A stretch of DNA of 64,000 nt from contig NC_086097.1 in the NCBI RefSeq assembly GCF_963921235.1, positions 41,542,001 to 41,606,000 of the forward strand. The letters are read 5' to 3'. The notes beneath the pieces are model-generated. The model worked only from the letters and a program-made list of their open reading frames with translations, did not search any database and was not told where the DNA came from. Source of the stretch: Mobula hypostoma (taxonomy: Eukaryota). Both the position numbers and the translations under genes were made by a program. Numbering within the stretch: position 1 is the stretch's first letter; each line of letters opens with the position of its first letter. Positions 6,853 through 63,084 of this stretch are shown here, piece after piece.

Positions 6853-7110
6853 GATCGGCAAGCAATGAGATCTTTAATCGGCAACTACATTCAGACCACA
6901 TTTGGTATACTGTGAGCAGTTTATAGTCAATATGGGCACAGGAAGATGCAAATATAGAAATTAGTGATTTTTATTCTGTGCCTATAAGCAAAGTGGCGAA
7001 TGGGATTCAAGATAATTTGAAAAAAAATATATTCTGGGACACAGCAAAATCTTTTGAAGAACTTCCAAATTTGGTATTTCTGCCATCTAAAACCAAAATG
7101 ATTGGGGAAA

Positions 7111-7269
7111 GCAACACACATCAAAGTTGCTGGTGAACGCAGCAGGCCAGGCAGGGTCTCGGCCTGAAACGTCGACTGCACCTCTTCCTAGAGATGCTGC
7201 CTGGCCTGCTGCATTCACCAGCAACTTTGATGTGTGTTGCTTGAATTTCCAGCATCTGCAGAATTCCTG
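7111..7269 (+). mobile_element. Penelope-like 3'-end mini-palindrome with 13-bp TSD
   Basis: TSD ATGATTGGGGAAA at 7098-7110 and 7270-7282. The left ~44-nt arm is the reverse complement of ~7197-7240. Sequence matches the ends of the 21834-24085 element. Confidence 0.92.
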
Positions 7270-8819
7270 ATGATTGGGGAAATCAGATTTAAGTAAATGA
7301 GTGAGAAATTTACTCTTTAATTTGGGCCTTTTCGAGCATTAGGTTATGTACATGTTGTTGAAAGGAAACTAGAATCTAATGTGTAAAAATCACCTTGCAT
7401 GCCCAGCAAAAATGTGATAAATCTATTTGCTACTCAATATGCAAATTATCATTCATTAGGGAGATAGTCTGACATTTTGAGATAACACTTATTTTCCTTG
7501 ACGAGTTTGTTCTTAACTCTAAGGTGATTCGAGACACTTGTGAAGTACAATAAAAGTGAGTGCCAATGTGATGTGCAGACCTCAGTGATTGGGGTATTAA
7601 ACAATCATAATAGGAGGAAATGAATCCGGAGCTAGAATATATTCAGAGATATACAGGTAATGCTGGGAAGGGAGAACGTGTGGCTGAACCCTTATGGTGC
7701 TCATTAAATATAACTGTTACAGCAAAAGAACACAAGGTAACTAATGTTATTCAAAAGCATGATTTTTTTTTGTTCTGCTTGACATGCAGACCAGGAAGCA
7801 AACAGCACTGGAATTCATTTCAAAGTAAGTGAGCGAAGCTGTGTACAAGCACTCTCTGAGAGAAATGTGATAGCTAGCTTAGAACAAAATTTGGAAAGGT
7901 TAGATTGCAGCTGAGAAGTTTATCGGGATAAAAATGGGATTGATGTAGGATTGGTGTAAGTTGTTGGTGTCGACTCAGTGGGCCAAAGGACTTGTTTCCA
8001 TTTGTGTGGCTTTATGATATAGAGGAATTGATGTCTAATAGTTACATCGCAGCGTGTTTCATAATTTTCAGCAGACATTCATTAATGTGTCTCACCCGAA
8101 AGGAAAATGTTGCCTGAGCAAAGGAGGAAATAGCAAATGGTTAAGTAATAAAATGCATCAGTGATATGGCAGTACTTTTCAGGGCCAGTTACCAGGAGAA
8201 AAAAGTAGAGCCCTAAGGCTTGGTTAAAAAGGTGGCTTCTCAAGGTGAGAGATGGAAAAGTGGATAACCTAAGGAAGGCACTTTCAGAGCAAAAGGCCCA
8301 GGTAGCAGAGAGACTCCTCTGGATACCTGTGCTCTGCTGGTACCTCTTAACTCAGGTTTTCTACTTCTGTTCATGACGGTTATAAATACTGATAAAAATA
8401 TAGAAGAGAATTTTTCAAAGTTATCAGATAAAGAATTCTGCAGGAAGGAAGTCAGTGAAATGTAAGGAGGTGCTTAGGGATTAGCAACTGAACAGATGGT
8501 CTACAATAATGTGAAATGTTTGGTATACTTTGGTATCAAAATAAGCACTTTGAAGCAAGGGCAGATAAGGTGAGATGAGAAAAGAAAATCTCTGCTTACT
8601 TGTTGGCGAAACACCAAAATCATCTCTGGAAAGCAACAGTTGTGAAGATAAACAAAATATTTGAGTATATAAATATATCAGAAATATTGGAGAGTATACA
8701 GTACATCAGGGGTGCTGTCCACTGTCTAGGTGAGTTGAATTGTTCACTTGTCTGATGTTAAATTAACCAAGCATTGTAAAGACCAGAGTGCCTTTGTTTT
8801 GCCTTCATTAATCTTGAAG

Positions 8820-9985
8820 AGAAGAGAAAAGAGAGAGAAACGCTGAATTGTGATAAAGGAAGGTCACTGGAGCTGTGCTGGGTCATGAGATAAAGACAGT
8901 GGATAATCAGGTGGAATCAGTTTGCCTGAGATCCTGAAGAGCAAGGGCAGGAAAACACGGGTGAGAATAATTTATAGACCCCTGAAATGTGACCGCTCAA
9001 TAGGAAATAAATGTGGAAGTATCAAGGGCATTTTAGAAGGAAACTGCAGTTCTCATTGGAAGATTGTAACTTACATATTAATCAGATGAATCAGTGGACG
9101 AGAGTATTGTGGAAGTAGTGGTCATGGCAAACATTGGAGATTGCCCATTAGGACAGTACATTGCATAATATATTCGGGAACAGTCTATTTTAGATTTGGT
9201 TGTTTGTAATGAGGAGGGTTTTTTCTGGTGGTTAAATATCCTCTCGAGGGTAATGACCACAACATGAAAGAACACAAAGTGCACTTTGAGGATGAATACA
9301 ATTGACCCATAGCCAATGTTTTCAGTTTAAATAAAGGCAATTATACTGGTATGATGGTAGAGTTGTCTAAGGTGGATTGAGTAATCAAGCCAAAAGACAT
9401 ATCAGCAGCTGAACATTGGCAGATACTCAAACAGCTGATCTGTAAAGCAGGAATGTAATGTTGAGGCTTTATAAGGCACTGGTTAGGCCTCACTTGGAGT
9501 ATTGTGAACAGTTTTGGACTCCTTATCTGAGAAAGGATGTGCTGCCATTGGAGAGAGTTCAAAGATAATTCCGGAATTGAAAGGCTTGTCATTTGAAGAG
9601 CGTTTGATGGCTCTGGGCCCGTACTCACTGGAATTCAGAAGTATGATCGGTGACCTCATTAAAACCTATTGAATGTTTAAAGGCCCCGTGAGAGAAGATG
9701 TGGAGAGTATGTTTCCTATGATAGGGGAGTCTAAGATCAGAGGACACAGCCTCAGAATAGAGGGCTATCCTTTTAGAACGGAGACGAGGAGGAATTTCTT
9801 TAGCCAGGGAGTGGTGAATCTGTGGAAGTCATTGCCACAGGCAGCTACAGATGCCAATGACAGATTTCTACATATAGTTAAGGCAGATGTTGATAGGTTC
9901 TCGATTGGTCACTGCATGAAGTGTATGGGGAGAAGGCAGGAAGCCGGGTTGGGAGGAGAAAATGGGTGGGCTGTGATGAAATGTT
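8820..9985 (+). mobile_element. Decayed CR1 (endonuclease remnant joined to 3' end)
   Basis: RPHLEYC-type codons at ~9485; ORF 9673-9993 (RGHSLRI, RRNFFSQGVVNLW). Confidence 0.8.
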
Positions 9986-10204
9986 ACCTATAATATATTG
10001 TGCCTGTAAAAAGTCTTCACCCCCCCGCCCCAGAAGCTTTCATGTTTTATTGCTTTACTACTTGAATTACAGTGGATTTAATTTGGCTTTTTAACACTGA
10101 TCAACAGAAAAAGACTTTTGTTTCAAAGTGAAAACAGATTTCGCGAAAATGATCTAAATTAATTACAGATATGAAACACAAAATAATTAACTCTCTTACT
10201 TTAT

Positions 10205-10450
10205 TATGTTATGTATACCCCATTATGATAACAGGGCATTCCCAGAAAATATGATAATGGTTTGCATTTTGATTTCCACAATTTCTCCAGCAAGCAGGGG
10301 GGTTACTATTATAATGGGATTCCTGAGAGGGTGTAATAAAATATCTTATCAAGTCTTTCCACCCGAACTCCCTCCATTTCTGTGAACTGGTACACTTCCA
10401 TTGATACCTCCATATTATTGTCCAATCTTCATGAGGGGTGATCTTATTCA
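10205..10450 (-). mobile_element. L1/Tx1-type ORF2 C-terminal cysteine-rich fragment
   Basis: ORF 10209-10451 contains CWRNCG...HYHIFWECP (CCHC zinc knuckle of L1-clade ORF2). Confidence 0.75.
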
Positions 10451-11216
10451 AAAACTGAAGATCTCAAGGGGGTTTGACAGTCTTAATGTTGGATATTTTC
10501 TCCAGTGGGAGAGTCTCAAACAATGGGATGTAAATACAAGAGCTCAGATATTCTAGCAGGAAATGGAATCTCTGGAATTCTCTGCCCCTGAGGGTGGTGG
10601 GTGCTGGATCTTTGGGAATGTTTAAAGCAGAACTAAATAAGATTCCGATGGATTGAGGAATAGAAGAGTATGGAAAAATGACGCAGAAGAAGAGTTGAGT
10701 CCAGTATATTAGTTATGATCATATTAAATGCAGGGCAAGGCTGGAAGAGTCTGAAGACTTATTCCTGTTCTAACCTTTTGCATTCATGTTTGCTCAAGCA
10801 AAGTATGGACTGATATGAAAATGTGCTTCTTAGATTTGAATACCCTTCTGCCGTCACAGCAAGTGCCTTACTGGACTCAAGTGCCAATTTCTTTCCTATT
10901 TGCGACAAATCATCAAATAACCTGTGTTTTATAGCAGTTTTCACAACCTTACATGAACTCTTCATAACCACTGAAGTATCTCTGATGCGAAGGCATTGTA
11001 TGAGACTGTGGCAGTTAACTTGTGCACAACAAGTTCCCACAGATTAGCAATGAGATGATGACTAGCTAGCCTGGATTTTATAATAATAATTGAGATATCA
11101 GCCAGAACACCAGGAATAACTATTCTGCTGTTCTTCAGAATACTTCAATGCAATATTATACATCTACTTAAGAAACTAAGGGGCAGTACATTCAACAGAG
11201 CAGGAGAGCACTGCTC

Positions 11217-11255
<39 letters not shown>

Positions 11256-11262
11256 AGAGAGA
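11217..11262. repeat. (GA)n microsatellite
   Basis: Run of GA dinucleotides with one GCGC interruption. Confidence 0.97.
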
Positions 11263-11456
11263 CTAAATACTGCAACTTCTGACTCAGTGATAAGTGCCAC
11301 CATATCTTGGTTGCATCTTAAGTATCTGTTCAATTTGCTTTGACTTGCTTTTCATTATGGATAATCCTTGTCTTTGTACATGAGCCTGGCTACCTAGCTG
11401 AATCTGACCAAGCCCAACTTCATGTCATGGTTTTGGGTTAAGTCAGCTTTGAATAA

Positions 11457-12130
11457 GGAGAAGATGGCGGCACGACGACAGCACGCGCAGCCACTTCGGT
11501 GGTGATGTCTGTTATCTGTCAAGTAGGGGACTGTGCACAATTCTGATTTGATGGAGACAGACGTGAGAGTACAGAGGAAAATCTGGAAAACTTCTGAAAT
11601 GCCCGCTTCGCTGTCGCTGCTACTGTAACTGGAATCTTCGGAGCAAAAGGCCCCGAAATCCTCGGCTTTGCGTGTTTCAGCAGCCAGGGTGAGGTCGAAG
11701 GTGCGCGGCAGAGGATGGCGCTCGGGAGGCTGCATTGGAGAGGCTGGTTGGAAGCTCAAAGTTTTTGGACAGATGGACTCAGTGTCGGCTGTGGTCAGCT
11801 GCTTCCAAGGCATTGGCAAGTTGACGGTGCCTGGAGGTTTATGGCAGGGAGTTTCTCCCTTTTGCCACCTGCTATCAGGGATTCGGGAGTCGATCGACTC
11901 TGGGACTTTTGAGACTTTATTTACCGTGCCCATGGTTTGTTCTTCATCAAATTATGGTATTGCTTTGCACTGCTGTAACTATATGTTATAATCATGTGGT
12001 TCTGTCAGTGTTAGTCTTTGGTTTGTCCTGTTTTCTGTGATATCACTCCGGAGAAACATTGTATCATTTCTTAATACGTATACGCGTTTCTAAATGACAA
12101 TAAAAGAGGACTGAGTGTTCTCATAATCTA
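11457..12130 (+). mobile_element. Young, CpG-rich non-autonomous retroelement (probably Rex1/Babar-mobilised)
   Basis: Starts GGAGAAGATGGCGGC (YY1-like motif also at the 5' end of the Rex element, ~46828). CpG-rich 5' half, T-rich 3' half ending aatgacaataaaagagg...cataatcta. No coherent ORF. Partner LINE is inferred. Confidence 0.6.
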
Positions 12131-12134
12131 AATA

Positions 12135-12440
12135 AAGATTAGCTTTATTCGTCATGTGCATCAAAGCATAAAGCAAAATACATCACTTGTATCAAATCAA
12201 ATTCGTGTCAATTGTGCTGGGAGCAACCTGCTCGTGTCGCCACTTTTCCAGTGCCAATATAGCTTGTCCACAACTTACCAGACCTGACTGGAACCATGTG
12301 TCTTTGGAATTCGGGAGGGCGGCCATGCAGTCATTTGGAGAGGTACAATCTCAGTACAGACAGCGGTGGGAATTGAATCCCGACTGGTGATCGCCAGCTG
12401 ATCAATGATAAAGTGTGCTAACCCCTATGCTACTGTGCTA
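12135..12440 (-). mobile_element. tRNA-derived SINE (decayed)
   Basis: On the minus strand: A-box-like GTAGCATAGGGGTTAGC and B-box-like GGGATTCAATTCCC; tail ends AATAAAGCTAATCTT. Confidence 0.65.
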
Positions 12441-13859
12441 CCAGTAATCTTCAGGTTCAGGTTGGCTGCATAGAGTTTAGCAGGGTTGCATCTTAATTTT
12501 ACATTCAATATCATCATTGTGCTTCAGTTAATATAATCAGTTGTTGCTAGCCATCACAGGGACTGAATTCAATCATCTTCATTATGGGCTTGGGATCATG
12601 ATGAAGTGATAATGGTTTTATGAATGAGAAATTGGCCTTGTCAAATTTGCTAGAGTCCCTTGAGTATGTAACAAATTGGATGGAAAAGAGGATGGTGAAT
12701 TTGAATTTCTAGATGGCACTCAATAAGGTAAACGACACATTTAGTTGAGACATGGAAAGGGGAGTAACCTAAGAGCCAACAGAGTTGAGATAAATCTGTA
12801 AATCTGTATATTAATTTTGCAATAACTATTGGGGTTCCATTGAGGATAGACCTCAACAATTTATAATCTATATCAATGATATGGACACAAAGATGAAAAG
12901 ACCTTTCACCAGGTTGTACAAGGAGAAGAGATTTGAAAGTTGAGAACTCAGAGCCTGCAAAGGTTAATGAGTGGGAAAGAAATTGGAAGAGAGTATAATA
13001 TGGGAGAATGTGAGGTTTCCCACATTGGAAGGAAGAATAATATCCTTTCTTAAATGAAATGAACTACAAAATGAAAGCACAAGAGACAGCAGATGCTGGG
13101 ATCAGGAGCAACAAACTAAAAACTGCTGTGTTAGTTAGTGACTTGTGGGGAGTTGTGGGTGGTCCCAGTAAAAATCAGCATGCAGATCCTGCAAATAAGT
13201 ATATAGATAATTAGAACCTTGGCTTTTATTGGAAGATTCAAATATAAGAGTAAGGAAGTTCTGAAGCAATTTCACAAGGCACTGGTGAGACCACAGCTGA
13301 AGCTTTAGTTTCCATATACAGGGAATAATATAAAAATAATATACAGAGAAACTGTTCGCCAGGTTGATGCCTAACTGGGAAGAAGACGATGATGTATGAA
13401 GGAAGATTCAGCAGGTTAGGTTATACTCATTGGAATATAGACAAAATGGGATGGATCTTCCTGAAGTATAGTGTGATTCTCTGGGGGAGGGGCGTGGTTG
13501 ACAGCTCGCCCTTGCATTTCTAATGACCAGCACTGTTAATGGTTCATGCATTAATATGCTTCTGTGGAATTATGGTGGGAAGTGTCAATCCATTTATTGC
13601 CACATTTTAGCTTGGGTTATACTGTTATTTGCTTGTGTATTTGGGGGTCACCCTAACTGTAACCAGAGTGTATGACGGTCTCCTTCCCCATCGGTATGAA
13701 ACTGAGCTATTCTCTATCCGGATTATCGGTCCAGTCTATTTTGGTGTGTATGTATCACAATAAAAACTGTTGTTGAGTTAAAGAGCTTCCTCATCTGTCA
13801 CTCTGGACCAAATGCTCACTACAATATTGAAGCATGCTGGGAAGCATTGTCATTGTGGG

Positions 13860-15289: not shown

Positions 15290-15415
15290 CTGACGAAGGG
15301 TCTCGGCCTGAAACGTCGATTGCACCTCTTCCTATAGATGCTGCTTGGCCTGCTGCGTTCACCAGCAACTTTGATGTATGTTGCTTGAATTTCCAGCATC
15401 TGCAGAATTCCTGTT
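15290..15415 (+). mobile_element. Penelope-like 3'-end copy starting at the hammerhead core, 6-bp TSD
   Basis: TSD GTTGGC at 15284-15289 and 15416-15421. Begins CTGACGAAGGGTCTCGGCCTGAAACGTC and ends with the full tail ...CAGCATCTGCAGAATTCCTGTT. Confidence 0.9.
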
Positions 15416-19153: not shown

Positions 19154-19191
19154 GAGGAAATCTGCAGATGCTGGAAATTCAAGCCACTTTG
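19154..19191 (-). mobile_element. Solo Penelope-like 3' tail (38 bp) with 14-bp TSD
   Basis: ATCTATCACAATAC at 19140-19153 and 19192-19205 flanks GAGGAAATCTGCAGATGCTGGAAATTCAAGC..., matching the tail at ~21843-21872. Confidence 0.85.
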
Positions 19192-19950: not shown

Positions 19951-19954
19951 AGAA

Positions 19955-21000: not shown

Positions 21001-21933
21001 GATTCTGGTTATGAGTTTGCTTATTGCAGGTGGAGCATTAGTCAATAAACTGATATGGATTGTTTTGTTGCTCCAGATTACAGCATGTCTTGCAATGTCT
21101 TCTGCCACCCCCCCCCCAATGTATGTGCTCTGTTTATGTCCCAAACTTCCTGCCAAATGCATCCAAAGTAAAAATATGGATATTTACCCAAGTAAAAGGT
21201 TCTAGCAACCATTCTACCTCTTAGGAACAGATTTTTTGCCAATCATTTATATAAATACTTTAAATCTCGAATTGCCTTTGAAAGATCAGTGTCAGGTCTG
21301 CACCTCCTCAAGTGTTTGCCTGCCTCCTTGTTCCTTTGCTTTTCGGCTGGTGTCACAGCTCATAGTTATCCACGTATAATGAACACAGGGTACTATACAG
21401 CTTGATCACTATTTTTTTCATCTTGTACTTCACCCAAATTTTGCTAACCATTTTAATACTGAAGAATTGTTTCTATAATTAGCATTAGACATTGGGATGT
21501 TTGGCTGCATCTGGTAAAAAAAAGAGTCCAACATGTCAGTGTTTTATAGCAGCAGATTATCCTCAGAAAGCAATTGTGTAATGTTGCATCTATCATGAAG
21601 TAAGTGTACAGGGATATTACATCTCTCAGAGTCGCTGTGTTTCAATTCAATCTGCTCCTTGTAAACTCACCAGTAATTATTCCACCTTTCTCTATTTTAT
21701 GATTGCTTCTGAATGGAAGTTTCAACTTTGAGCATTTCGTTTTAAACAGAAATCCACAATAATATCAATCCCTCACCACTTCAATAGGGAAGGGTTCAGG
21801 TGGAGGGCATTATGCTGCATTTGGTGTTTATAAGCAAACAACAGGAATTCTGCAGATGCTGGAAATTCAAGCAACACACATCAAAGTTGCTGGTGAACGC
21901 AGCAGGCCAAGCAGCATCTATAGGAAGAGGCGC

Positions 21934-21969
21934 AGTCGACGTTTCAGGCCGAGACCCTTCGTCAGGACT
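21934..21969 (-). ncRNA. Minimal type-I hammerhead ribozyme motif
   Basis: Minus strand reads AGTC-CTGACGA-A-GGGTCTCGGCCT-GAAAC-GTC-GACT. Confidence 0.8.
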
Positions 21970-22261
21970 AACTGAAGGAAGAGTGAGTAAGGGATTTGAA
22001 AGCTGGAGGGGGAGGGGGAGATGCAAAATGATAGGAGAAGACAGGAGGGGGAGGGATAGAGCCGAGAGCTGGACAGGTGATAGGCAAAAGGAGATACGAG
22101 AGGATCATGGGACAGGAGGTCCGGGAAGAAAGACGGGGGGGGGTGACCCAGAGGATGGGCAAGAGGTATATTCAGAGGGACAGAGGGAGAAAAAGGAGAG
22201 TGAGAGAAAGAATGTGTGCATAAAAATGAGTAACAGATGGGGTACGAGGGGGAGGTGGGGC

Positions 22262-22588
22262 CTAGCGGAAGTTAGAGAAGTCAATGTTCATGCCATCAGG
22301 TTGGAGACTACCCAGACGGAATATAAGGTGTTGTTCCTCCAACCTGAGTGTGGCTTCATCTTTACAGTAGAGGAGGCCGTGGATAGACATGTCAGAATGG
22401 GAATGGGATGTGGAATTAAAATGTGTGGCCACTGGGAGATCCTGCTTTCTCTGGCGGACAGAGCGTAGATGTTCAGCAAAGTGGTCTCCCAGTCTGCGTC
22501 GGGTCTCACCAATATATAAAAGGCCACATCGGGAGCACCGGACGCAGTATATCACCACAGTCGACTCACAGGTGAAGTGATGCCTCAC
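22262..22588 (-). pseudogene. GIY-YIG endonuclease domain of a Penelope-like element (5'-truncated; RT absent)
   Basis: FTCES..VIYCVRCSRCGLLYIGETRRRL..H..HF..E..LGSLQPDGMN: GIY-YIG with the CCHH residues of PLEs. The upstream Cys linker (KCYTCP) suggests the Neptune group. Confidence 0.9.
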
Positions 22589-23365
22589 CTGGAAGGACTG
22601 TTTGGGGCCCTGAATGGTGGTAAGGGAGGAAGTGTAAGGGCATGTGTAGCACTTGTTCCGCTTACACGGATAAGTGCCAGGAGGGAGATCAGTGGGGAGG
22701 GATGGGGGGGACGAATGGACAAGGGAGTTGTGTAGGGAGCGATCCCTGCAGAATGCAGAGAGAGGGGGGAGGGAAAGATGTGCTTAGTGGTGGGATCCCG
22801 TTGGAGGTGGCGGAAGTTACGGAGAATAATATGTTGGACCCGGAGGCTGGTGGGGTGGTAGGTGAGGACCAGGGGAACCCTTTTCCTAGTGGGGTGGCGG
22901 GAGGATGGAGTGAGAGCAGATGTACGTGAAATGGGGGAGATGAGGGAGGGAGATGTCCTCCTTTTTTAAAGAAAGGGGCTTCCCTTCCTCCACTGTCAAC
23001 TCTGCTCTCAAATGCATCTCCCCCATTTCACACACATCTGCTCTCACTCCATCCTCCCGCCACCCCACTAGGAATAGGGTTCCCCTGGTTCTCACCTACC
23101 ACCCCACCAGCCTCCAGGTCCAACATATTATTCTCCGTAACTTCCGCCACCTCCAACAGGATCCCACCACTAAGCACATCTTTCCCTCCCCCCCTCTGCT
23201 TTCTGCAGGGATTGCTCCCTATGCAACTTCCTTGTCCATTCGTCCCCCCCATCCCTCCCCACTGATCTCCCTCCTGGTGCTTTTCCTTGTAAGCAGAACA
23301 AGTGCTACACATGCCCTTACACTTCCTCCCTTACCACCATTCAGGGCCCCAGACAGTCCTTCCAG

Positions 23366-23692
23366 GTGAGGCGACACTTCACCTGTGAGTCGGCTGGGGT
23401 GATGTACTGCGTCTGGTGCTCTCGATGTGGCCTTCTATATATTGGCGAGACCCGACGCAGACTGGGAGACCACTTTGCTGAACACCTACGCTCTGTCCGC
23501 CAGAGAAAGCAGGATCTCCCAGTGGCCACACATTTTAATTCCACATCCCATTCCCATTCTGACATGTCTATCCACGGCCTCCTCTACTGTAAAGATGAAG
23601 CCACACTCAGGTTGGAGGAACAACACCTTATATTCCGTCTGGGTAGCCTCCAACCTGATGGCATGAACATTGACTTCTCTAACTTCCGCTAG
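23366..23692 (+). pseudogene. GIY-YIG endonuclease domain of a Penelope-like element (second arm)
   Basis: Near-identical to 22262-22588. Upstream frame 22953-23369 has the PLE thumb/linker (FKERGFP, RVPLVLTYHP, IILRNFRHLQ). Confidence 0.9.
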
Positions 23693-23987
23693 GCCCCACC
23701 TCCCCCTCGTACCCCATCTGTTACTCATTTTTATGCACACATTCTTTCTCTCACTCTCCTTTTTCTCCCTCTGTCCCTCTGAATATACCTCTTGCCCATC
23801 CTCTGGGTCACCCCCCCCCCCTGTCTTTCTTCCCGGACCTCCTGTCCCATGATCCTCTCGTATCCCCTTTTGCCTATCACTTATCCAGCTCTTGGCTCTA
23901 TCCCTCCCCCTCCTGTCTTCTCCTATCATTTTGCATCTCCCCCTCCCCCTCCTGCTTTCAAATCCCTTACTCACTCTTCCTTCAGTT

Positions 23988-24023
23988 AGTCCTGATGAAG
24001 GGTCTCGGCCTGAAACGTCGACT
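23988..24023 (+). ncRNA. Minimal type-I hammerhead ribozyme motif (predicted cleavage after C24019)
   Basis: AGTC-CTGATGA-A-GGGTCTCGGCCT-GAAAC-GTC^GACT: stem I AGUC/GACU, core CUGANGA and GAAA, stem II hairpin, loopless palindromic stem III (ACGU). Activity untested. Confidence 0.8.
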
Positions 24024-25055
24024 GCGCCTCTTCCTATAGATGCTGCTTGGCCTGCTGCGTTCACCAGCAACTTTGATGTGTGTTGTTTGGTGTTTATAAA
24101 GATGGTCTCATTGCCAAAAGCAAGTGCTGGCTTTATTCCCAGTTATAAAAGAAAATACCTGCCTTGCATGAATATTTAATTAACTGTGCTCTATTTTGAA
24201 TAGTGCCCATTTAATTCACGATATCCACGATTACTGAAAGCAAGATTTACATACATAAGGACACATACACATAGCTTTGAACTCCCACTATCTTCAGTTT
24301 AACGCAGAGTAAAATCAAAACAATCCAGCACTTACAGTTATGGAAAAGAAGCTTCAAACTTAACTTGTTCTTGAATTTTCTAATAATATAGCATCAAAAG
24401 ATAAAAAGGCAGCAATTACATTCATTGTGTTGAAATCACTTCGTATTTATTCACCCACCTTCAGTTTACAGATCCCAGAAGGCAAGTTAATTTGCCTAGT
24501 CTGTATCAAAGCTGATGCTTGTCTATAACACTGAGTATCTATTTTGATAAGAAATCTCCTGATACTTCTAAACTCCAAAGAATACAGATCTAAATTATTT
24601 AGTCATCCATAATAGAATAGCAAAATGAATCTCTTCTGGACTTCCTCCAGTGCTTGTATATTTTTCTTAAATAGGGAACCAAAAATATGCAGAATTCTGT
24701 AGGTGTAGCCCAAGGAAAACCCTGTACAATCGCAACAATAATTCTTCATTTATAAACTCCATAAACTAGCAGTGAAAACCAGTTTACTCTTTTCCTTCTT
24801 AATTGTTTGTTGTATCTGCATGCTAACCTTTTGTGCTCCATACAGAGGAACACCTAGATCCACCTGTAATCCACTTATTTTGATACCACTTATCAAAGTA
24901 TAAGACCTTACACTTTCTCGCATTAAGTTCTACTTGTCATTTTATGCCCTCTCCCTCAACTTAGCTATATCATATTACAGAGTGCGAAGATCTCATCATA
25001 GCATGCCATCCCACCCATTTTTGTACCATCATAAAACTTGGATACCTTACACTCT

Positions 25056-25185
25056 CAAACAAGAGAAAATTTGCAGATGCTGGAAATCCAAGCAACACAC
25101 ACAAAATGTTGGAGGAACTCAGCAGGCCAGCAGCATCTATGGAAAAGAATAAACAGTCGATGTTTCCAGTCAAGACCCTTCATCA
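25056..25185 (-). mobile_element. Penelope-like 3'-end copy (sister subfamily) starting at the hammerhead core, 16-bp TSD
   Basis: TSD GGATACCTTACACTCT at 25040-25055 and 25186-25201. Minus strand begins (CC)TGATGAAGGGTCTTGACTGGAAACATCGACT. Confidence 0.88.
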
Positions 25186-27270: not shown

Positions 27271-27523
27271 AACACAAAATGCTGGAGGAACTCATCAGGT
27301 GTGGCAGCATCCATGGAGAGGAATAAAGAGGCAACAGATTGGGCTGAGACACTTCATCGGGACTGATTGTCTTTCTTTGCTGGCCAGTCCCAACGAAAGC
27401 TCTTGGCTCAAAACATCAACTCTTTATTCCTCTCCATCGTGCTGCCTGACCTGTTGTGTTCCTCCTGCAGTTGGTGTGAGTAATTCTGGATTTCCAACAT
27501 CAGCAGTATCTCTTGTTTTTACA
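27271..27523 (+). mobile_element. Older Penelope-like mini-palindrome with 9-bp TSD
   Basis: TSD ATTACAACT at 27262-27270 and 27524-27532. Diverged arms ~27271-27365 and ~27385-27478, then tail ggatttccaacatcagcag. Confidence 0.8.
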
Positions 27524-28171: not shown

Positions 28172-28295
28172 ACAAACAAGAGAAAGTCTGCTGACGCTGG
28201 AAATCCAAGCACTACACATAAAATCCTGGGGCCACTCAGCAGGCCAGGCAGCATCTATGGAAAAGAGTTCAGTTGACGTTTCGGGCCGAAACATC
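28172..28295 (-). mobile_element. Penelope-like 3'-end fragment
   Basis: caaacaagagaaagtctgctgacgctggaaatccaagc...gttgacgtttcgggccgaaac, homologous to 25056-25185. Confidence 0.8.
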
Positions 28296-28953
28296 GACAA
28301 TTGTCCTCATCCGTCCAACTTTGAGAATGGCTAGGTCGAATAATAGCATTTTCCCTGTGCATGTGGGGAAATATTAAAACACTCCTGATTTTCTGAATGG
28401 ATATTGGAGTAACATATACAGTAACTAATACTGAGCAACAAATACAAATTGCATCAGATTTAGTCAAATTCGTACCTCATTCAGGCATTGATTTTCAGGC
28501 ACTGAATCATTTTTCTTTCACTGGAGTAGTTTTTAATCGGCTGTAAGGCATAAATGTCTAATCCTGCCAGTAGTGAACAAGACATTTTAGTTCACACAAA
28601 ATATAATAGACATGCCATTAGAGTGTGTAATTGCCCTAGAGTGTACTGTTTCTTTACAGTGTGCCTTGACAGCAAGGTGCTATTGCATTGATTGATATTG
28701 GTTAGTTCAGAAGTACTCAGCCTGAAACACTACTTTCACACAAGTCACGCCAGATGTTTTCAGAGGTCAAGTTAAATTGATTAAGTGTCTATTTGATTTG
28801 TAGGCAGAGCAGTAAAAATAATTTCCTTCAAAGGATGGTCACGTTTTAAGGATCCAAGGCAGCCCGTTTGATAAAATAACATTACAAAACAACAAATGGG
28901 CTGAGAGGTGTTCACTCACAGTCTCTGTATTTTTATATAAAGGTTCTTTTATG

Positions 28954-42921: not shown

Positions 42922-43309
42922 AACACACATCAAAGTTGCTGGTGAACGCAGCAGGCCAGGCAGCATCTCTAGGAAGAGGTACAGTCGACGTTTCGGGCCG
43001 AGACCCTTCATCAGGACTAACTGAAGAAAGAGCTAGTTAGGGATTTGAAAGTGGGAGGGGGAGGGGGAGATCCAAAATGATAGGAGAAGACAGGAAGGGG
43101 AGAGATGGAGCCAAGAGCTGGACAGGTGATTGGCAAAAGGGATATGAGAGGATCATGGGACAGGAGGCCCAGAGAGAAGGAAAAGGGGGAGGGGAAAAAA
43201 CCCAGAGGATGGGCAAGGGGTATAGTCAGAGGGACAGAGGGAGAAAAAGGAGAGAGAGAGAAAGAATGTGTGTATATAAATAAATAACGGATGGGGTACG
43301 AGGGGGAGG
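42922..43309 (-). mobile_element. Penelope-like 3'UTR unit inserted into L1 ORF2, 12-bp TSD
   Basis: TSD TGGAGCTATAGC at 42910-42921 and 43310-43321; homologous to ~21872-22258. Confidence 0.92.
42983..43018 (-). ncRNA. Minimal type-I hammerhead ribozyme motif
   Basis: Minus strand AGTC-CTGATGA-A-GGGTCTCGGCCC-GAAAC-GTC-GACT; stem II closes with GGG/CCC. Confidence 0.8.
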
Positions 43310-54991: not shown

Positions 54992-55389
54992 GTGAGAAAA
55001 CAAAAAAAAACCGTAATACATTGTGGCAGAGATTGGCATTTGCCGGTGTATCTTAAATATTATCCACACCTATTGTTTGTTGAAAGCATAAAGAAAAAGA
55101 TGCATTTCTTTATTTAAAGGATCTGTGGAAAATCTAGCAGGAAAAAAAATGTGGCCAATTTATTGGAAGGTACTTTCACAATTTACCAACATCCTGACAG
55201 ATTCCTTGTAGGATGTTTGACCTCATTGTTGTCCCTTTGGGGTCTTCTTGGGAAAACCTCTAGGTCATCATAGTATCATTAGCTAGAGGATCTTTTGACT
55301 GAAAGGATATGGTTTGGGTATTGAGAGGAGGTTCATGGTAGAGGGAGCCTGTTGTTTTTGTAGAGTTCAATGGAACACTCAAGCTTCAA

Positions 55390-56740: not shown

Positions 56741-57159
56741 AATCCCAGAGTCATTGGGGCTGTGGTATTTTGTGAAGGTGCTCCATGTTTTGCGTTTCTT
56801 GCTCTAATTGTTCCAAAAATTATATTAATTATTCAGTGTTGTCTACCTGGCTGTTCTAAATTGTGCCTGTTGATTCCCAAGATGGCATTAAAGGCTCCAT
56901 AGCCACTTTGCATTTATAACAAGAGAGTTGCCTACAAGAAGTAAATGGTTCTGGCACCCATGCTTCTTACACAAAACATTGTTCAGAATAGCAGCAAAAA
57001 ACATATTATGTGCTTTGCCCATACATTTTCATGAATAGCACCTGCCAGGCCAGGTAAAATTTCCACCATATCTGAACACTGTAGTTTGAAGGTCACTGCT
57101 TTTTAAAAAATGGAGACATGCAGCATGGAAGCAAGTTACTTGGCCCATCTAATCCATAC

Positions 57160-57702
57160 CCTGGCCCTATGCTCATCTCGAGAGCATCCAGACAGCAAAG
57201 GCACTTTTATCAGACTATTGTTCAATGACTAGATCTCTGCCTTCAACGCTGTAATTCCAAGCAAACCTACCTCCAAGTTCCTTGACCTGGGATTCAGCAC
57301 CTCCCTTTGTGGGTGAATCCTTGACTTCCTGACCAACAGACCACAAATCTCTAAGGATAGGCAGCAACATCTCCACCACCATTATTCTCATCACTGATTC
57401 CCCACAATCAGCCTCCTTATATGCTCACAACTCACAACTGGGTAGCCATACTCTGCTCTGACTTATTCGAATTTTCTGATGACGCCTCTGAGTCTCAGAT
57501 TGATGAGTAAGAGTGCAGAAAGGAGACAGAGAGCCTGATAATATGGTATCATAACAACAATTTTCCCCTCAATGTCAGCAAATAAAAGAGCTGGTCATCT
57601 ATTCCAGGTGGGGGCAGTGTGCCTGCTCCTATTTACACCAACAGTACTGAGGTCGAGAGGATCGAGACCCCTAGGTTCCTGGGAGTAAACATCACCAATA
57701 AC
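57160..57702 (+). mobile_element. Rex1/Babar RT fragment (decayed)
   Basis: tctgccttcaac, gacttcctgaccaacagaccaca, ctcaatgtcagcaa motifs parallel 49280-49790; ORF 57619 has RFLGVNIT. Confidence 0.8.
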
Positions 57703-58389
57703 ACTGGAGAACATTTGCTCAGTTCTCAGTACCAAAAACATTTATTCAAAGCCTATCAATCTCAGTTAATGACCATGGATGTGTTGAACTTTGGAGTTGG
57801 GAAATCTGATGATTTGTGAAACTCCTAGAAAAGAAGCTTTCTACCCGAGACCCACTTGATCTGTCCATAGAGTCATAGTGCAGAAACAGACCCCTCAGCC
57901 CATCTTGTCCACGACAGACTATTAATCTGTCCAGTCCCATCGTCCTGCACCTGGACAATAACCCTGCATACCCCTCTTTTTTACGTAGCGAAGAGAATCA
58001 TAGAACACGACGGCATAGAAGCAGGCCATGCTGAGACTATTGTCCTCAATTCTGGACTCCACAGACTAGGAAATGAAGTCTCCACCTCTGTCAGCCTGGG
58101 GATGTTTTAGTTTCCACCCCACACAGAGCAGGTCTGCCTGCCCCTTACAAATATCCAGGGATCTTTGTATTATTTTTACAAAAAATCCAGCTTCAATGCC
58201 TAGCTAAGGTGGACACTGCGCAGCAAACATAGGTTTCAGTGCCGTCCAAGTAAAGACACTGAGAAGGTGAGTAAGAATTCTGAAGACAACTATTTCACAA
58301 AGTTGCACTACTTAATTTGTGGTCTGTAAGAGGACTCAATTAACCTCCCATGGAGCTGCGACTCCATCTGAATCAGTGACATGAGGCTT

Positions 58390-58850
58390 CCCTGTGTATG
58401 GAAATGGTCTTGAGCATTTGATGGCTCTGAGCCTGTACTCGCTGGAGTTTAAAAGAACGAAGGAGAAACTTCACTGAAGCCTTCGGAATATTGAAGGGCC
58501 TAGATAGAGTGGATGTTTTCCATAGTGGTGAGGTGGGGTGGGGGGAATCTAAGGTGAGAGGAAATAGCCATAGAATAGAAGGATTTTCCTTTAGAGCAGA
58601 GATGAGGAGGAATTTCTTTAGCCAGTGAGTGGAGAATCTATGGAATTCACGGCCACAGGTGTCTGTGGAGGCCAGGTCATTGGGTATATTGAAAGCAGAG
58701 GCTCTTGATCAGTAAAGGTGTCAAAGGTTACGTGGAGAAGGCAGGAGAATGGGGTTGAGAGGGATAATAAACCACCCATGATGGGATGGCAGAACAGACT
58801 GGATGGGCCAAATGGCCAATTTCTGCTCCTATATCTTATGATCTTATAAC
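58390..58850 (+). mobile_element. CR1 3' end
   Basis: gagatgaggaggaatttctttagccag; 3' end gatgggccaaatggccaatttctgctcctatatcttatg. Confidence 0.85.
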
Positions 58851-61740
58851 ACCACTCTGGTGATTGGAGTGAGGCTTAACCACCTGACACACAGAGGTCT
58901 TTGCTCTACCACTTAGTAACTGGCGGAGCTAGCTCTGACGAAGCTCTGACCCCTTGTGATGTGAACTGGGTGGTACTGGGTCACCGTGCAGCTCATTTCA
59001 GAGTCTGCTCAAGCCCTGAAATGAATCCACAGAAAAGAATTCCATGTAGAGCGGTAGTTTTGTTCTATTGGTGGAATAAGATTTGAAACATATAACCATA
59101 TAACAATTACAGCACGGATACAGTACTGAAACATGTTTCAGAATAAAATGTTTTGCACCGCAGTGCAATTCTATGAGAATAATTGCCACCTTAACTTCAC
59201 TCTGGCTAGGCACAGTCATTTGTTTCCTCAGAAGATTATTTTCTTTTGTAAAAAGTGGCTTTTATTCACAAGGGAAACCTAGGTCTTTTAAAGCCCAGAC
59301 TACTAAATTAAACTATTGTGTGTTTTTGACTTGCAGTCTACTGGGGTTTGAGTAAATCTGCTAAAACAAAATTTAGTAGTGACCTCTAGCATCCCTCGCA
59401 TCACACTCCTCAAAGGTATGTACAGGCTTCAAACCTGAGGCACTTAATTAATAAGAGACCCACTGGAATGTTTTTTGAGAGACATTCAAAAAGACATTAT
59501 TTTTATATGGTGGTTTCAGGGACAAAGCTGTAAATAACATTCACCATTGAATTATTTGCAGCCTGTGGGAGAGTGATTGAATTTCAATCATGAAAGAGAG
59601 TGTTTTTGTTCCTTCCTGTCATGGTATTTTCTAAACTTACCTTGGCCATCAATCACTGGCCAACACAGTTTAAGATAATCTTTCTGGCTCTATAATGTAC
59701 TTGTATTCTAATAGAGCTCCTTCTAATAAGCAAAGGAGGTCTGACCCATCCTGCTTCTTGCTTCATCCCTGTCCCTCCAACACAACTGAACAAGTGTCAC
59801 AAATGTCACCCCCCCCCCCCCCGCAAACTATCATAACCCTTTCTCTACACCATTCCTGTCCCAGGTCTCTTCCTTGAAAAGGCACCCTCTCACTCAACGA
59901 TCTCTCCATCACTCAACCCCCCTGACAGACACCTCGCTTCCTCAATGCAACTCATCAAAGCCATTAGGCTCCAATAATTGATGCATCCTGCGATATTTCA
60001 AGTTGTTTCAGTTAACTCTAAGAGGTGAACTGCCTTTGCCTGCTGCTCTTCATGAACTGATCCAAACCCTTTAAAACCAGTATAACTGAGAACTCATAAA
60101 TAAACACGGACTGCATATAACACTGCAGAAATATGCAACAAAGAACTGAAGCTGCTTCTGCCATGTATTCACATGCTGCATTCTCCAATTAATAAAAGAC
60201 AAGTGAAGAGATAATTTGGCAGGAAGTTTCAATGAAATTCAAATTTAATTGTCATTAAACCATATTAGAATACTCACAAATACAGCCAAACTAGGCAGTA
60301 TTACCACAGTGTCAAGGTAAAAGACACATTACTAACAGCCACACGCAAGATCGCAATCATGTAATAAGAGTCCTGAAGCCAACCTCCCTCCTCTCCACTG
60401 CAACGCTGTGCCTTGATGCATAGAAGGCAACAAATCCATATAGAATATCAGTAAAAATACAATGACACAGAATATGTATGTATACATACAGTCCAGACCC
60501 CCCAGCCCACCGATATCATCTGTCAATACCCACAAGGTGAATCCGTGGCTTTGAGGCCTAGTCCTCGCACGTACAAGAACATATAGAATGTTAGTAAAAA
60601 CCCAACCAGACCCATATGTATACAGTCCAGACCCATCAGTCCATCTTAAATTTTCAGTTGCCACAACTGTGCTACGCCGCCCTCAGTAGAGTGCGATGGC
60701 TCGGGTGTCTCCCCAGTGGCTAAAAAGCAAGCAACCTCGCAGCTTGAGGCCTAAGTCCATCGAGTGCCGCTAAAAAAACCTGCAGGTGGCCACAACAGAG
60801 CTTGTCTTCCGCCAAGCAAAACCCTGGGAGGGCAGCTCTGACTCCATTCTATTCCTGGTTCCTGCCACCATATAAATAGTTGGGGGGAGGGGGGGCGCTG
60901 TGATTTGATACCTATCAACTTAAAACACTCAACTCACAACATCAATGGGAATAAATAAAATCCAGGAAGAGTATTTGACAAACACATATTTCCATGTTAT
61001 GCAGTGACCTTCAGAGCTGTGACCATTTGGTGTGTGTAGAGCTTGGAAGACAAGCAAGCATTTTATTTGGTGATGGAAATTCAGACCTGAAGCTTCATCA
61101 ATAAATGGATTGATGAGGGACTGGAAATGGGTACTGCCACGAGAATGACTGAACTGTTGATGGACTATGCGCAGGATTTGAAGCTTTGCTCAGTAGCAGA
61201 CTGAAGACTGAAATTGCCCAAAGTGTTGAGCTGTCCCTGACAGCAGGAACCCTTGGTTGCGAGTTAAATTGTCAAGCCATCCAATTGACATGAATATGTT
61301 GATGCTGTGCAATAATACGAGGATAAAGCAGAATGTAACTCCATGAAAATCAATTCCAATTAATTCCTTTTGTGAGGACTGAAAGATTTTTGTAACATAT
61401 AGGCAGGGTCCTGTAACTTTACTGTATATAAAGCTAGGAACACAATGAATTGCTAAGATACGGAACTCTGCTGAGATACACGTATCTTGTTTATTTGAGT
61501 ATGAGCTGACTGAACATGTATGAATATGTCATATATTTTCGCCCACTGTCTAGTAATTTGTGGTTTCTGTGAAATTGTCTGGTGCTGCTGTCCATTGATT
61601 TGATTATTTTGCTCGACTGATCATTTCGAAAGGTGTACTGGAGAAGAATGAAAAAGATGCTGAAACCTGCAAGTGTAAAGCTGCAGCCTTGACTTCTATG
61701 AATATTAATGCTGATCTTGGATGATGCTCATCCGGGAAGT

Positions 61741-61880
61741 ACATGTGATTCTGCATCGGCTGGAAATCTTGAACAACGCACACAGAATGCTGCAGGGACT
61801 CAGCAGGACATGCAGCAGCTATGGCCCTCCATCAGAAGCTGCCTGACCTGCTGAGTTCCTCCAGATCTTGTGCATGTTGC
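61741..61880 (-). mobile_element. Old Penelope-like mini-palindrome
   Basis: Tail ctgcatcggctggaaatc, then arms ~61771-61818 and ~61838-61881 (actcagcagg / cctgctgagt). Degenerate TSD TGCTCATCC(G/T)GG(A)AAGT at 61725-61740 and 61878-61894. Confidence 0.7.
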
Positions 61881-63084
61881 TCATCCTGGAAAGTTGGCTT
61901 CATTACCTCGTGGAAATCAGACACTGTCAAAGCAAAAAGCATCTCACCAGCTCACTATTCAGGATGATATTGATGAACTGAAGTTTGCAATGAACAGGTT
62001 TTTGTATGTCTGGACCAAATTACCTCACAATCAATGCCAAGTGAACAACTGTGTCGCAGAGTAGTAATACCACACCTAAAACCTGTGCCATAGGTGAAAC
62101 TGTGGACAATGAAGGTTATTCTGTGACCTTGATAGGGAATGGTGTGAAAATTGGCACAAATCACAGTCTCTTTTAGCAAAATAACTTCAGGTGACTGGAA
62201 AAGCAAGTTCTTGATCTGAACAATCATCAAGATTGTTCCTGCATTCTCTTCTTTTCTGCTGTGCTGCAAGCCAGAGTGAAGATTAAACAGTTCCCACCCT
62301 GGAAGTCTCAGAAAAATCCGTGGAATCACTTCAGTACAATGGATGACCTCAATTAGACTGACATAGTCAATGACTCTGGATGCTCACAGAAATGTGGAAC
62401 AGATGAAGTGTGCTGCAAGGTCACCTGATTAAAAACTGTGCTCCATGGCTATTTTGAGAATTACTTGCAGTGCAAAGAAAGGGCAAAACTCCAAAACAGA
62501 CTCAAGCAACTTGTAGAGAAATTCATCATTTTCGGTAAGGACTGGGAGAATGATGCTCATAGATGTCATTCTGGTGAAATTGTGTCAAATAGTATGTCAT
62601 CGCCACTGAGAACCACCAGCGAGCCCAGAACAAGGTTTATATCAGAGTCTGATAGCAGCCATACTCCATCCTCCTGGCCAGCCAATCTGGGAAGGTTTGC
62701 AACTTACACACCAGCCTCTTTTCCTGCACTCCTAACTCAAGCTGCAGCTGTGGATTTGTGTCATAACACCTGACGATTCTGTCTCATTACTTCACAGGGT
62801 GTTTCATAGATTGAGAAATGTTCACAGTCAATATATTTGGTGGAATTGTCCTTTGAAATTGCACTTGCACTGAAGTGGCAAAGCTTGGCAGATGGAGACA
62901 TAAATCGTGTTTTTTATTGTGGGTTCCTCACAAAGAATAACCTTTTTGTGATTCCTATTTGTTCATTGCAATTCACCCACGCTTCACATGTTGCCGTACT
63001 GAGCAGCCTTGAGGGCCCACTCGTGCTCTTATTTCTCACATCTTGCCTGCTGGTGACAGTACAAAAGGCTCAGTTCCATTTAAA

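What the first reader, a model, noticed from the sequence alone, without database searches (positions are those of the whole stretch)
7098..61894. Ribozyme-bearing Penelope-like family leaves a series of insertion products with shared breakpoints
Seen: at least nine copies of one PLE 3'-end sequence, most with their own TSD, in four forms. (a) Hairpin plus single-copy tail: 7111-7269, 21834-24085, 27271-27523, 61741-61880. (b) Ribozyme core to tail: 15290-15415, 25056-25185. (c) Tail-less 3'UTR: 42922-43309. (d) Tail only: 19154-19191. Tail-less ends stop at essentially the same place, ...GATGTGTGTTG(C)|TTGAATTTCC, about 30-38 nt before the full 3' end, in independent insertions. Established: PLEs have pseudo-LTRs, often inverted, with a short tail extension and hammerhead motifs. 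Inference: there are two defined initiation or processing points (tail end and an internal site), and short non-coding units may move in trans as SINE-like, ribozyme-bearing satellites.
Basis: partly seen in the sequence, partly recalled or inferred. Interest (0 to 1): 0.82.

Follow-up and report, generated by a model that had tools for sequence, protein, structure and literature searches.

The report
Penelope-like retrotransposon copies with tail signature
The window holds ten insertions of a very abundant Penelope-like jumping gene whose copies end at two fixed points 37 bases apart, a signature that has already been described and explained for this class of element.

Summary
In the four forms it listed, their 3' ends fall at two sites: A (...GTGTGTTG/C/T/T) and B (...TTGTTTG/C/G), about 37 nt apart.

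Genome-wide the family is huge:
- The hammerhead-core 18-mer occurs 83,039 times.
- Of 60,780 exact 3' anchors, 36,332 (60%) run into the tail and about 40% stop at site A.
- 19 of 26 insertions have a flanking direct repeat of 10 nt or more, against 8 of 83 control windows.

A 772-aa open frame elsewhere in the genome carries reverse transcriptase (RT) and GIY-YIG endonuclease motifs.

The "two initiation points" reading is supported but already published: Frangieh et al. 2024 showed two adjacent RT start sites that define the PLE tail. Inverted arms with one tail are in Craig et al. 2021.

The "SINE-like satellite" reading is not supported. The short units have no head of their own, occur in five sequence variants alongside long copies, and are no more uniform than long copies.

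Two points go beyond the papers I read. 5' ends pile up at the hammerhead's 5' edge (17 of 42 within 24 nt). Hairpin insertions pair one A end with one B end (20 cases, no A+A or B+B). Verdict: ordinary biology, new family member.

The parts
7110..7269 (.). Hairpin insertion. The left arm, 7110-7154, is antisense and ends at site A without a tail. The right arm, 7153-7269, is sense, starts inside the hammerhead core and ends with the tail. The TSD ATGATTGGGGAA lies at 7098-7109 and 7270-7281.
15290..15415 (+). Short solo unit running from CUGACGA of the hammerhead core to the tail (site B). It lacks the 5' strand of helix I. The flanking repeat is GTTGGC (6-8 nt).
19154..19191 (-). Tail-only insertion of about 38 nt, spanning site B back to site A. 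The TSD is ATCTATCACAATAC.
21834..24085 (.). Large hairpin insertion. The left arm is antisense and has the tail (site B at 21834). The right arm is sense and ends at site A (24085). Each arm carries the GIY-YIG coding end, about 300 nt of 3' UTR and the hammerhead. The arms reach residues 547 and 524 of the 772-aa frame. The TSD TTTGGTGTTTATAA lies at 21820-21833 and 24086-24099.
23987..24024 (+). Minimal type I hammerhead motif: helix I UAGUC/GACUG, CUGAUGA, one extra A, helix II GGGU-CUCG-GCCU, GAAAC, then GUC with the predicted cut after 24019. Its mirror copy lies at 21933-21970 on the minus strand.
   Evidence: no Rfam match
25056..25185 (-). Short solo unit of an older subfamily (about 80% identical to the young copies), running from the hammerhead core to the tail. 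The TSD is GGATACCTTACACTCT.
27271..27523 (.). Older hairpin insertion. The left arm is antisense and ends at site A; the right arm is sense and has the tail. Both inner ends lie at the 5' edge of the hammerhead (CAGUCC). The TSD is ATTACAACT.
28173..28300 (-). Older copy with the tail (site B) and a fold-back of about 15 nt at its inner end.
42922..43309 (-). Tail-less solo copy running from the start of the 3' UTR through the hammerhead to site A. The TSD is TGGAGCTATAGC.
61740..61878 (.). Older hairpin insertion. The left arm is antisense and has the tail; the right arm is sense and ends at site A. The TSD is GCTCATCC(G/T)GGAA.

Best explanation
These are ordinary insertion products of an autonomous, very abundant PLE family. 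The family encodes RT plus a C-terminal GIY-YIG endonuclease with a linker zinc finger of the Neptune/Nematis type.

Proposed mechanism:
1. The element's protein nicks the target with a 10-16 nt stagger. This is shown by the TSDs.
2. It starts reverse transcription on the element RNA at one of two fixed sites: site A at ...GUGUGUUG(CUU), or site B about 37 nt downstream at ...UUGUUUG(CG). The stretch between the two sites is the PLE 'tail'. This is inferred from the sharp bimodal ends and from the in vitro result on an Anolis PLE.
3. When only one nick primes, the result is a solo copy ending at A or at B.
4. When both nicked strands prime, the result is a head-to-head inverted ('hairpin') insertion with one A arm and one B arm.
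5. cDNA synthesis usually stops early. There is a strong hot zone at the 5' edge of the minimal hammerhead, which gives the units of about 100 and 135 nt.

These short units are dead-on-arrival by-products, not a self-propagating SINE.
For: Element identity:
- A 772-aa open frame in locus L011 carries DKG, F-MD, YIDD and GVIY-CxxC-YIG motifs.
- The linker CX4CxxC motif is present in L012-L014 and in the window arms.
- The minimal hammerhead (min-HHR) has the features listed by Cervera and de la Pena 2014.

3' ends:
- In the first 42 core matches on contig C1, 20 end in the tail (B), 21 end at A and 1 ends elsewhere.
- Genome-wide, 36,332 of 60,780 exact 3' anchors run on into the tail.
- Contigs from other public runs break off into unrelated sequence at 21834 and at 21869-21872.

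TSDs: 19 of 26 insertions have a flanking repeat of 10 nt or more, against 8 of 83 control windows.

One tail per hairpin:
- 7 of 7 opposite-strand anchor pairs lying less than 1 kb apart have exactly one member in the tail list. If the two arms chose independently, P = 0.006.
- Over all hairpins where both ends could be read, there are 20 A+B, 0 A+A and 0 B+B, plus 2 odd cases.

5' hot zone: of the 42 core matches, 17 end or invert within 24 nt upstream of the core, 1 within the next 21 nt, and 24 run further upstream.

By-product status:
- The seven solo short units fall in five of the nine sequence variants, each of which also holds long copies.
- Short units and hairpin arms together have a mean pairwise distance of 0.072, against 0.045 for long copies.
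- A 5'-region 24-mer has only 353 genome matches, against 83,039 for the core 18-mer.

Literature: two RT start sites and extension of both strands are in Frangieh 2024. An inverted arm with the tail at one end only is in Craig 2021.
Against: - No RNA or biochemical data exist for this family. That A and B are RT start sites is inferred from DNA ends and from a Poseidon-clade element, whereas this family looks Neptune-type by its motifs.
- The Pfam matches to RVT_1 (19.4 bits, cut-off 29.6) and GIY-YIG (16.5 bits, cut-off 22.6) are below their cut-offs. No PDB sequence match was found.
- Rfam hammerhead models give no hit.
- The stem-loop around site A is not supported by covariation: only 4 pairs, 3 of them without any compensatory change. 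The fold is no more stable than shuffled sequence (z = 0.21).
- The 42-copy sample required an exact 31-nt core, so it favours young copies and cannot see 5' ends downstream of the core.
- The exact-pattern ratios mix true breakpoints with mutational decay.
Confidence: 0.85

Rival explanations
1. The short hammerhead-to-tail units are a non-autonomous, SINE-like or retrozyme-like lineage. On this view they are transcribed on their own and copied in trans by the PLE protein.
For: - The units are numerous: 17 of 42 core-bearing copies end within 24 nt of the core.
- The 40 best genome matches to the 15290 unit are 97-100% identical.
- The unit roughly covers the minimal RNA that the Anolis protein accepts in vitro at its 5' side (+20).
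- Animal retrozymes derived from PLE pLTRs are described.
- Non-autonomous Chlamys elements share 3' ends with autonomous ones.
Against: - All seven solo short units in the C1 sample start at scattered positions (-17 to -1) with no shared 5' head or promoter.
- Those starting at -1 or 0 lack helix I.
- They occur in five of the nine sequence variants, each alongside long copies, and short units plus hairpin arms are not less diverse than long copies.
- The inserted units lack any sequence downstream of site B, whereas the Anolis template needed about 54 nt beyond the start sites.
- No tandem arrays, which define retrozymes, occur in the window, and none appeared in the 350 kb examined. The one direct pair found (L081) joins two different subfamilies.
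Confidence: 0.1
2. The tail-less ends and the single tail come from endonuclease-mediated resolution or trimming of a transposition intermediate, not from a second RT start site. This is the older view in Craig et al. 2021.
For: - Craig et al. 2021 proposed this (passage seen).
- The strict pairing of one A end with one B end in hairpins could reflect one asymmetric cut of a symmetric intermediate.
Against: - Solo copies also end at A, with their TSD directly abutting (42922-43309, L056, L071).
- The in vitro work mapped cDNA starts to both sites on both strands.
- The tail-only insertion with its own TSD (19154-19191) is simply explained by a start at B and a stop at A.
Confidence: 0.08
3. 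Hammerhead self-cleavage of the template RNA sets the 5' ends of the short units.
For: The 5' ends cluster at the ribozyme. One inverted arm (L051) begins 2 nt after the predicted cut.
Against: - The cluster lies at the 5' edge of helix I, 28-33 nt upstream of the predicted cut after GUC.
- In the sample that does not require the core (the window plus 200 kb of random loci), none of about 20 ends or junctions read from the table lies within 1 nt of the cut.
- In the Anolis system, ribozyme-dead templates inserted normally and no reads began at the cut.
Confidence: 0.03

Closest known systems
Canonical endonuclease-positive PLEs of the Neptune/Nematis and Penelope/Poseidon clades (Arkhipova 2006, as cited in Craig et al. 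2021, PMC8557442)
   Same: [quoted passage not shown]
- A hammerhead in the non-coding end.
- Heavy 5' truncation.
- An adjacent inverted 5'-truncated copy.
- A 30-40 nt tail at one end only.
- TSDs of variable length.
   Different: - The three copies that reach furthest 5' (L036, L038, L040) show no upstream pseudo-LTR.
- Clade placement rests on the linker CX4CxxC motif only; no tree was made.
- Copy number is very high: 83,039 exact core 18-mers.
PAc, the Poseidon element of Anolis carolinensis, studied in vitro (Frangieh et al. 2024, PMC11167929)
   Same: - Two RT start sites a few tens of nt apart that delimit the tail.
- Both target strands are used.
- The hammerhead cut site is predicted 25-26 nt after the AUG of CUGAUGA.
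- Hammerhead cleavage is not reflected in the insertion ends.
   Different: - In PAc the hammerhead overlaps the ORF start, and the start sites lie 111-118 nt into the ORF. Here the AUG of CUGAUGA opens only a 14-codon frame, and the sites lie about 91-93 and 128 nt after it, in non-coding sequence behind the ORF.
- The paper reports no strand difference in start site and no rule of one A plus one B per insertion.
Animal non-LTR retrozymes (Cervera and de la Pena 2020, search listing only; Li, Clavereau and Pollet 2026 preprint, abstract and Results part 1 read)
   Same: Short, non-coding sequences with a type I hammerhead that are related to PLE pLTRs. Dispersed monomers are regarded as offspring that cannot transpose.
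   Different: Retrozymes are defined by tandem repeats that give self-cleaved circular RNAs. The units here are single, flanked by TSDs, often lack helix I, and match the 3' ends of coding copies of every subfamily.
Twin priming of LINE-1 (5'-inverted insertions)
   Same: A second priming event from the other nicked strand gives an inverted, truncated arm inside one TSD.
   Different: In L1 the second primer anneals at variable internal positions. Here the second start is a fixed site 37 nt from the first, and both 3' ends face outward.

Membership tests
Penelope-like element, endonuclease-positive | RT domain with PLE-type motifs, including DKG upstream of the core RT | tested here: met
   KPADKGG at residue 177, F-MD at 318 and YIDD at 418 of the 772-aa frame in L011. 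The Pfam RVT_1 match is only 19.4 bits, below the 29.6-bit cut-off. That DKG is diagnostic comes from Craig 2021.
Penelope-like element, endonuclease-positive | C-terminal GIY-YIG endonuclease with CCHH, the two cysteines lying between GIY and YIG | tested here: met
   GVIYCVWCSRCGLLYIGET followed by HFAEH. The Pfam GIY-YIG match is 16.5 bits, below the 22.6-bit cut-off. The criterion is from Craig 2021.
Penelope-like element, endonuclease-positive | [quoted passage not shown] | tested here: met
   The tail is about 37 nt. There are 20 hairpins with one tail each.
Penelope-like element, endonuclease-positive | Pseudo-LTRs from partial tandem copies | tested here: inconclusive
   None was seen upstream of the three longest copies. 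One head-to-tail junction was found (L081), but it joins two different subfamilies. Only a few loci could be read.
Neptune/Nematis clades rather than Penelope/Poseidon | [quoted passage not shown] | tested here: met
   CKRNKCYTC in L012-L014 and CK(Q/R)NKCYTC in the window arms. The criterion is from Craig 2021. No phylogeny was made, so the clade remains provisional.
Minimal type I hammerhead ribozyme of PLEs (Cervera and de la Pena 2014) | Core CUGANGA...GAAA, a cleavage triplet, helix I of 4-5 bp, an unpaired base before helix II, G10.1-C11.1, and a palindromic 15.2-16.2 | tested here: met
   Core: CUGA(C/U)GA, one extra A, then GAAAC-GUC. Helix II: GGGU-loop-GCC(C/U), so G10.1 pairs with C in older copies and with U in young ones. 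Helix I: (C/U)AGUC with GACUG. ACGU is palindromic. The features are listed.
Minimal type I hammerhead ribozyme of PLEs (Cervera and de la Pena 2014) | Match to a curated covariance model, or demonstrated self-cleavage | tested here: not met
   No Rfam hammerhead hit at the gathering threshold on the whole window, nor at E up to 10 on 23900-24140. Cleavage cannot be tested with these tools.
SINE | Its own 5' head with an internal promoter, and a lineage that amplifies on its own | tested here: not met
   There is no shared head: 5' ends are scattered from -17 to -1. The units fall in five sequence variants alongside long copies and are not more uniform.
Non-LTR retrozyme | Tandem repeats of a hammerhead-bearing unit | tested here: not met
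   No tandem array of the unit occurs in the window or in the loci read. Genome-wide absence was not tested.

The most novel reading that the evidence does not exclude
The two cDNAs of a two-sided PLE insertion may be mechanistically coupled. Sites A and B would each be used exactly once, either because both primers act on one RNA molecule (the second start has only the free downstream site left) or because the RNP dimer is obligately asymmetric.

The pile-up of cDNA ends at the 5' edge of the hammerhead would then mark either a telomerase-like template boundary set by the bound protein or the true 5' end of an abundant short RNA. Near-symmetric arms and zig-zag junctions would follow from end-to-end template jumps at that boundary.
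Probability: 0.3. Interest if true: 0.6.

Novelty: new member of a known kind. Interest (0 to 1): 0.3.

Why it matters
The finding mainly shows that the tail signature, worked out in vitro for a lizard Poseidon element, also holds at the scale of tens of thousands of copies in a different PLE lineage in another animal genome. This supports the claim that two RT start sites are general to PLEs.

Two patterns here could guide further mechanistic work on how PLEs use both target strands:
- the strict pairing of one A end with one B end in hairpin insertions;
- the 5' hot zone at the edge of the hammerhead.

For annotation, the results mean that the many 100-135 nt hammerhead-bearing fragments in such genomes should be labelled as truncated PLE ends, not as a separate SINE.

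Tried and rejected
- Rfam, at the gathering threshold on the window and at E up to 10 on 23900-24140, gave no hammerhead hit. The motif was therefore checked by hand against the published descriptor.
- A genome DNA search with a 68-nt core gave nothing, because very common words are skipped. Exact patterns were used instead.
The histogram therefore rests on 42 core-bearing copies plus 264 kb of window and random loci.
- Folding the hammerhead-to-tail RNA gave z = 0.21 against shuffles. RNAalifold on 27 tails gave 4 pairs, only one of them with a single compensatory change. A conserved stem-loop at site A is not shown.
- A PDB sequence search with the 772-aa frame gave no match.
- RNA evidence: no RNA holder is listed. 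The runs found are contigs whose RNA label is a guess. Laying four of them cannot show starts, ends or levels of RNA.
- I rejected hammerhead cleavage as the source of the 5' ends and post-insertion deletion as the source of tail-less ends, because the TSDs abut the tail-less ends directly.
- Two look-ups of earlier scan notes gave nothing on this genome.
- Literature searches listed no paper whose title or abstract start describes a 5'-truncation hot spot at the hammerhead or a one-A-one-B rule. Subscription journals and the supplements of Frangieh 2024 (Fig. S1-S2) were not seen and may bear on both points.
Full report
**What is there.**

- Hairpin insertions: 7110-7269, 21834-24085, 27271-27523 and about 61740-61878.
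- Short units running from the hammerhead core to the tail: 15290-15415 and 25056-25185.
- A tail-less copy: 42922-43309.
- A tail-only insertion: 19154-19191.

Four copies (25056, 27271, 28173, 61741) belong to older subfamilies, 75-82% identical to the young ones.

The large hairpin carries coding sequence on both arms. This comprises the last roughly 250 codons of an ORF ending in a GIY-YIG endonuclease, then about 300 nt of untranslated sequence, the hammerhead, and a further 65 nt up to site A.

**The element.** The window lies in a 3.48-Gb genome.

- A search with the 172-aa C-terminal protein raised 204,994 first-look candidates, of which 150 were scored, all at E below 1e-104.
- One locus (L011) has a 772-aa open frame with the motifs KPADKGG, F-MD, YIDD and GVIY-CVWC-SRC-GLLYIGET.
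- Other copies and the window arms carry CK(R/Q)NKCYTC in the linker.

By the criteria quoted in Craig et al. 2021 (passages), these motifs mark a canonical endonuclease-positive PLE of the Neptune/Nematis type: the DKG motif, CCHH with two cysteines between GIY and YIG, and the linker CX2-5CxxC that is absent in Penelope/Poseidon. I made no tree.

The supporting database matches are weak. The Pfam matches are below their cut-offs (RVT_1 19.4 bits, GIY-YIG 16.5 bits), and there is no PDB sequence match.

Copies reaching the 5' region are rare: 353 exact matches of a 5' 24-mer against 83,039 of the hammerhead 18-mer.

**The hammerhead.** Rfam finds nothing. That is expected for motifs without a helix III.

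Read by hand across 74 copies of several subfamilies, the motif has these parts:
- helix I, (C/U)AGUC pairing with GACUG;
- the core CUGA(C/U)GA;
- one unpaired A;
- helix II, GGGU-loop-GCC(C/U);
- GAAAC, then GUC as the cleavage triplet, within the palindrome ACGU.

These are the features that Cervera and de la Pena 2014 list for PLE minimal hammerheads (passages). The cut is predicted 25 nt after the A of the AUG in CUGAUGA, which is the spacing reported for the Anolis element. Activity was not tested.

**3' ends.** I took the first 42 exact matches of a 31-nt core pattern on contig C1. They lie in 40 loci, and I fetched 70 nt upstream and 170 nt downstream of each.

- 20 copies end in the tail, between TTGTT and TTGTTTGCGT.
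- 21 end at site A, between GTGTGT and GTTGCTT.
- 1 ends elsewhere.

Genome-wide, the anchor that ends at ...TGTTG has 60,780 exact matches, and 36,332 of them (59.8%) continue with CTTGAA. The reversed-pattern controls gave 0.

The window plus 200 kb of random loci show the same two ends, in the older subfamilies as well. Contigs of four public runs break into unrelated sequence at 21834 and at 21869-21872.

Flanking direct repeats of 10 nt or more, with at most one mismatch, occur in 19 of 26 insertions against 8 of 83 control windows. The medians are 14 and 8 nt.

**Already explained in print.** Frangieh et al. 2024 (main text read) purified the protein of an Anolis Poseidon element. They found the following:
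- The protein nicks and extends both target strands.
- Reverse transcription starts at two adjacent internal sites in a stem-loop.
- The sequence between those sites is the genomic tail.
- Ribozyme-dead templates insert normally.

Craig et al. 2021 (passages) describe the adjacent inverted 5'-truncated copy and note that the tail is often present at one end only.

**The SINE-like idea.** Of the 42 core-bearing copies, 7 are solo short units and 10 are arms of hairpins whose junction lies within 24 nt upstream of the core. The evidence against a separate lineage is as follows.

- The solo units start at -17, -15, -4, -4, -4, -3 and -1. They abut a TSD or a few extra bases and share no 5' head.
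- Units that start at -1 or 0 (15290 and 25056 in the window) lack the 5' strand of helix I.
- The solo units fall in five of the nine sequence variants in the sample, each of which also holds long copies.
- Mean pairwise distance is 0.072 within short units plus hairpin arms and 0.045 within long copies. A permutation test for lower diversity in the short class gives p = 0.67.
- No tandem arrays were seen.

I read the short units as truncated by-products. The concept of non-autonomous hammerhead-bearing PLE derivatives exists as animal retrozymes (listing; Li et al. 2026 preprint, abstract and Results part 1). Those are defined by tandem repeats.

**What goes beyond the papers I read.**

First, 5' ends are not spread evenly.
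- Of the 42 copies, 17 end or invert within 24 nt upstream of the core, with the mode at -4/-5, which is exactly the start of helix I.
- 1 ends in the next 21 nt, and 24 run on.
- Genome-wide, 32,772 of 41,835 core 31-mers are preceded by TAGT.
- 36,611 of 83,039 core 18-mers are preceded by the exact 17 upstream bases. These ratios also include mutational decay.
- The cluster is not at the predicted ribozyme cut, which lies 28-33 nt further 3'.

Second, hairpins pair one A end with one B end.
- Among the first 100 anchor matches on C1, 7 opposite-strand pairs lie less than 1 kb apart. In all 7, exactly one member is in the tail list. If the arms chose independently at 0.598, P = 0.006.
- Counting every hairpin whose two ends I could read gives 20 A+B, no A+A, no B+B and two odd cases, L074 and 28173. 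The 20 comprise the four in the window; L013, L019, two in L022, and L023; the seven C1 pairs, one of which is L041; and L054, L057, L064 and L068.
- Arms are often nearly equal in length, for example reaching residues 547 and 524 in the large window hairpin.
- Some junctions are perfect palindromes at the hammerhead edge (L041, L074).

**Mechanism.**

Shown by the data:
- staggered target duplication;
- two sharp 3' ends;
- outward-facing 3' ends in hairpins;
- one tail per hairpin;
- a 5' hot zone.

Inferred:
- Sites A and B are RT start sites, by analogy with the Anolis work.
- Hairpins arise when both nicked strands prime, and one cDNA then copies the other.
- The coupling of A with B may mean that both primers use one RNA or an asymmetric dimer.
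- The hot zone marks either an RNA 5' end or a protein-set template boundary.

The last two points are speculation, and I could not test them. The runs found are contigs whose RNA status is a guess. The stem-loop at site A has no covariation support.

**Limits.**
- The 42-copy sample requires an exact core, so it favours young copies and is blind to 5' ends inside or downstream of the core.
- Clade assignment is by motif only.
- Supplements of the 2024 paper and subscription literature were not seen.

**Verdict.** This is a well-observed but ordinary signature of a known class of retrotransposon, in a family that is probably new as a member. The headline inference is already published and the SINE-like inference is not supported.

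Noticed in passing
L013:6359-6764 (minus strand); also L036-L040: Many long copies carry a tandem duplication of about 180 nt, spaced 213 nt apart, in the N-terminal proline- and serine-rich coding part. Other copies have only the first 30 nt of the second unit. The family therefore has two structural variants at its 5' coding end.
   Followed up: partly
window 23174-23200; the 150 scored genome matches: Most copies scored with the window's C-terminal protein have an open frame of only 172-174 aa. They share a frame break in a run of C just upstream of the endonuclease region. Roughly one in ten of the 150 scored matches is open for 230-772 aa.
   Followed up: partly
L081:1-666: A tail-less end (site A) of a young copy directly abuts the 5'-truncated coding end of a copy from another subfamily (90% against 99% identity to the reference arm). 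This is a head-to-tail junction that looks like a pseudo-LTR but was built from two separate events.
   Followed up: partly
L070 and L019 (inner junctions of hairpins): Some hairpin junctions hold three or more short segments of alternating orientation, all from the hammerhead zone. It looks as if the polymerase switched template several times there.
   Followed up: no
L042, L047, L056 (5' junctions): 7-17 extra nucleotides, belonging neither to the element nor to the flank, lie between the upstream TSD copy and the 5' end of the short units.
   Followed up: no
window 21834 and 21869-21872, as seen in runs X1, X2, X5 and X19: Contigs from public runs of several coded organisms hold this element and break off into unrelated sequence at the same two 3' sites. 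The family and its two ends are therefore shared beyond this assembly.
   Followed up: partly
L036, L038, L040, about 450 nt upstream of the L013 junction: The three copies that reach furthest 5' all begin at the same point (CTCGCCGCTTCTCC...), with unrelated or different sequence upstream. This is a candidate true 5' terminus. A 24-mer from this region occurs only 353 times in the genome.
   Followed up: partly
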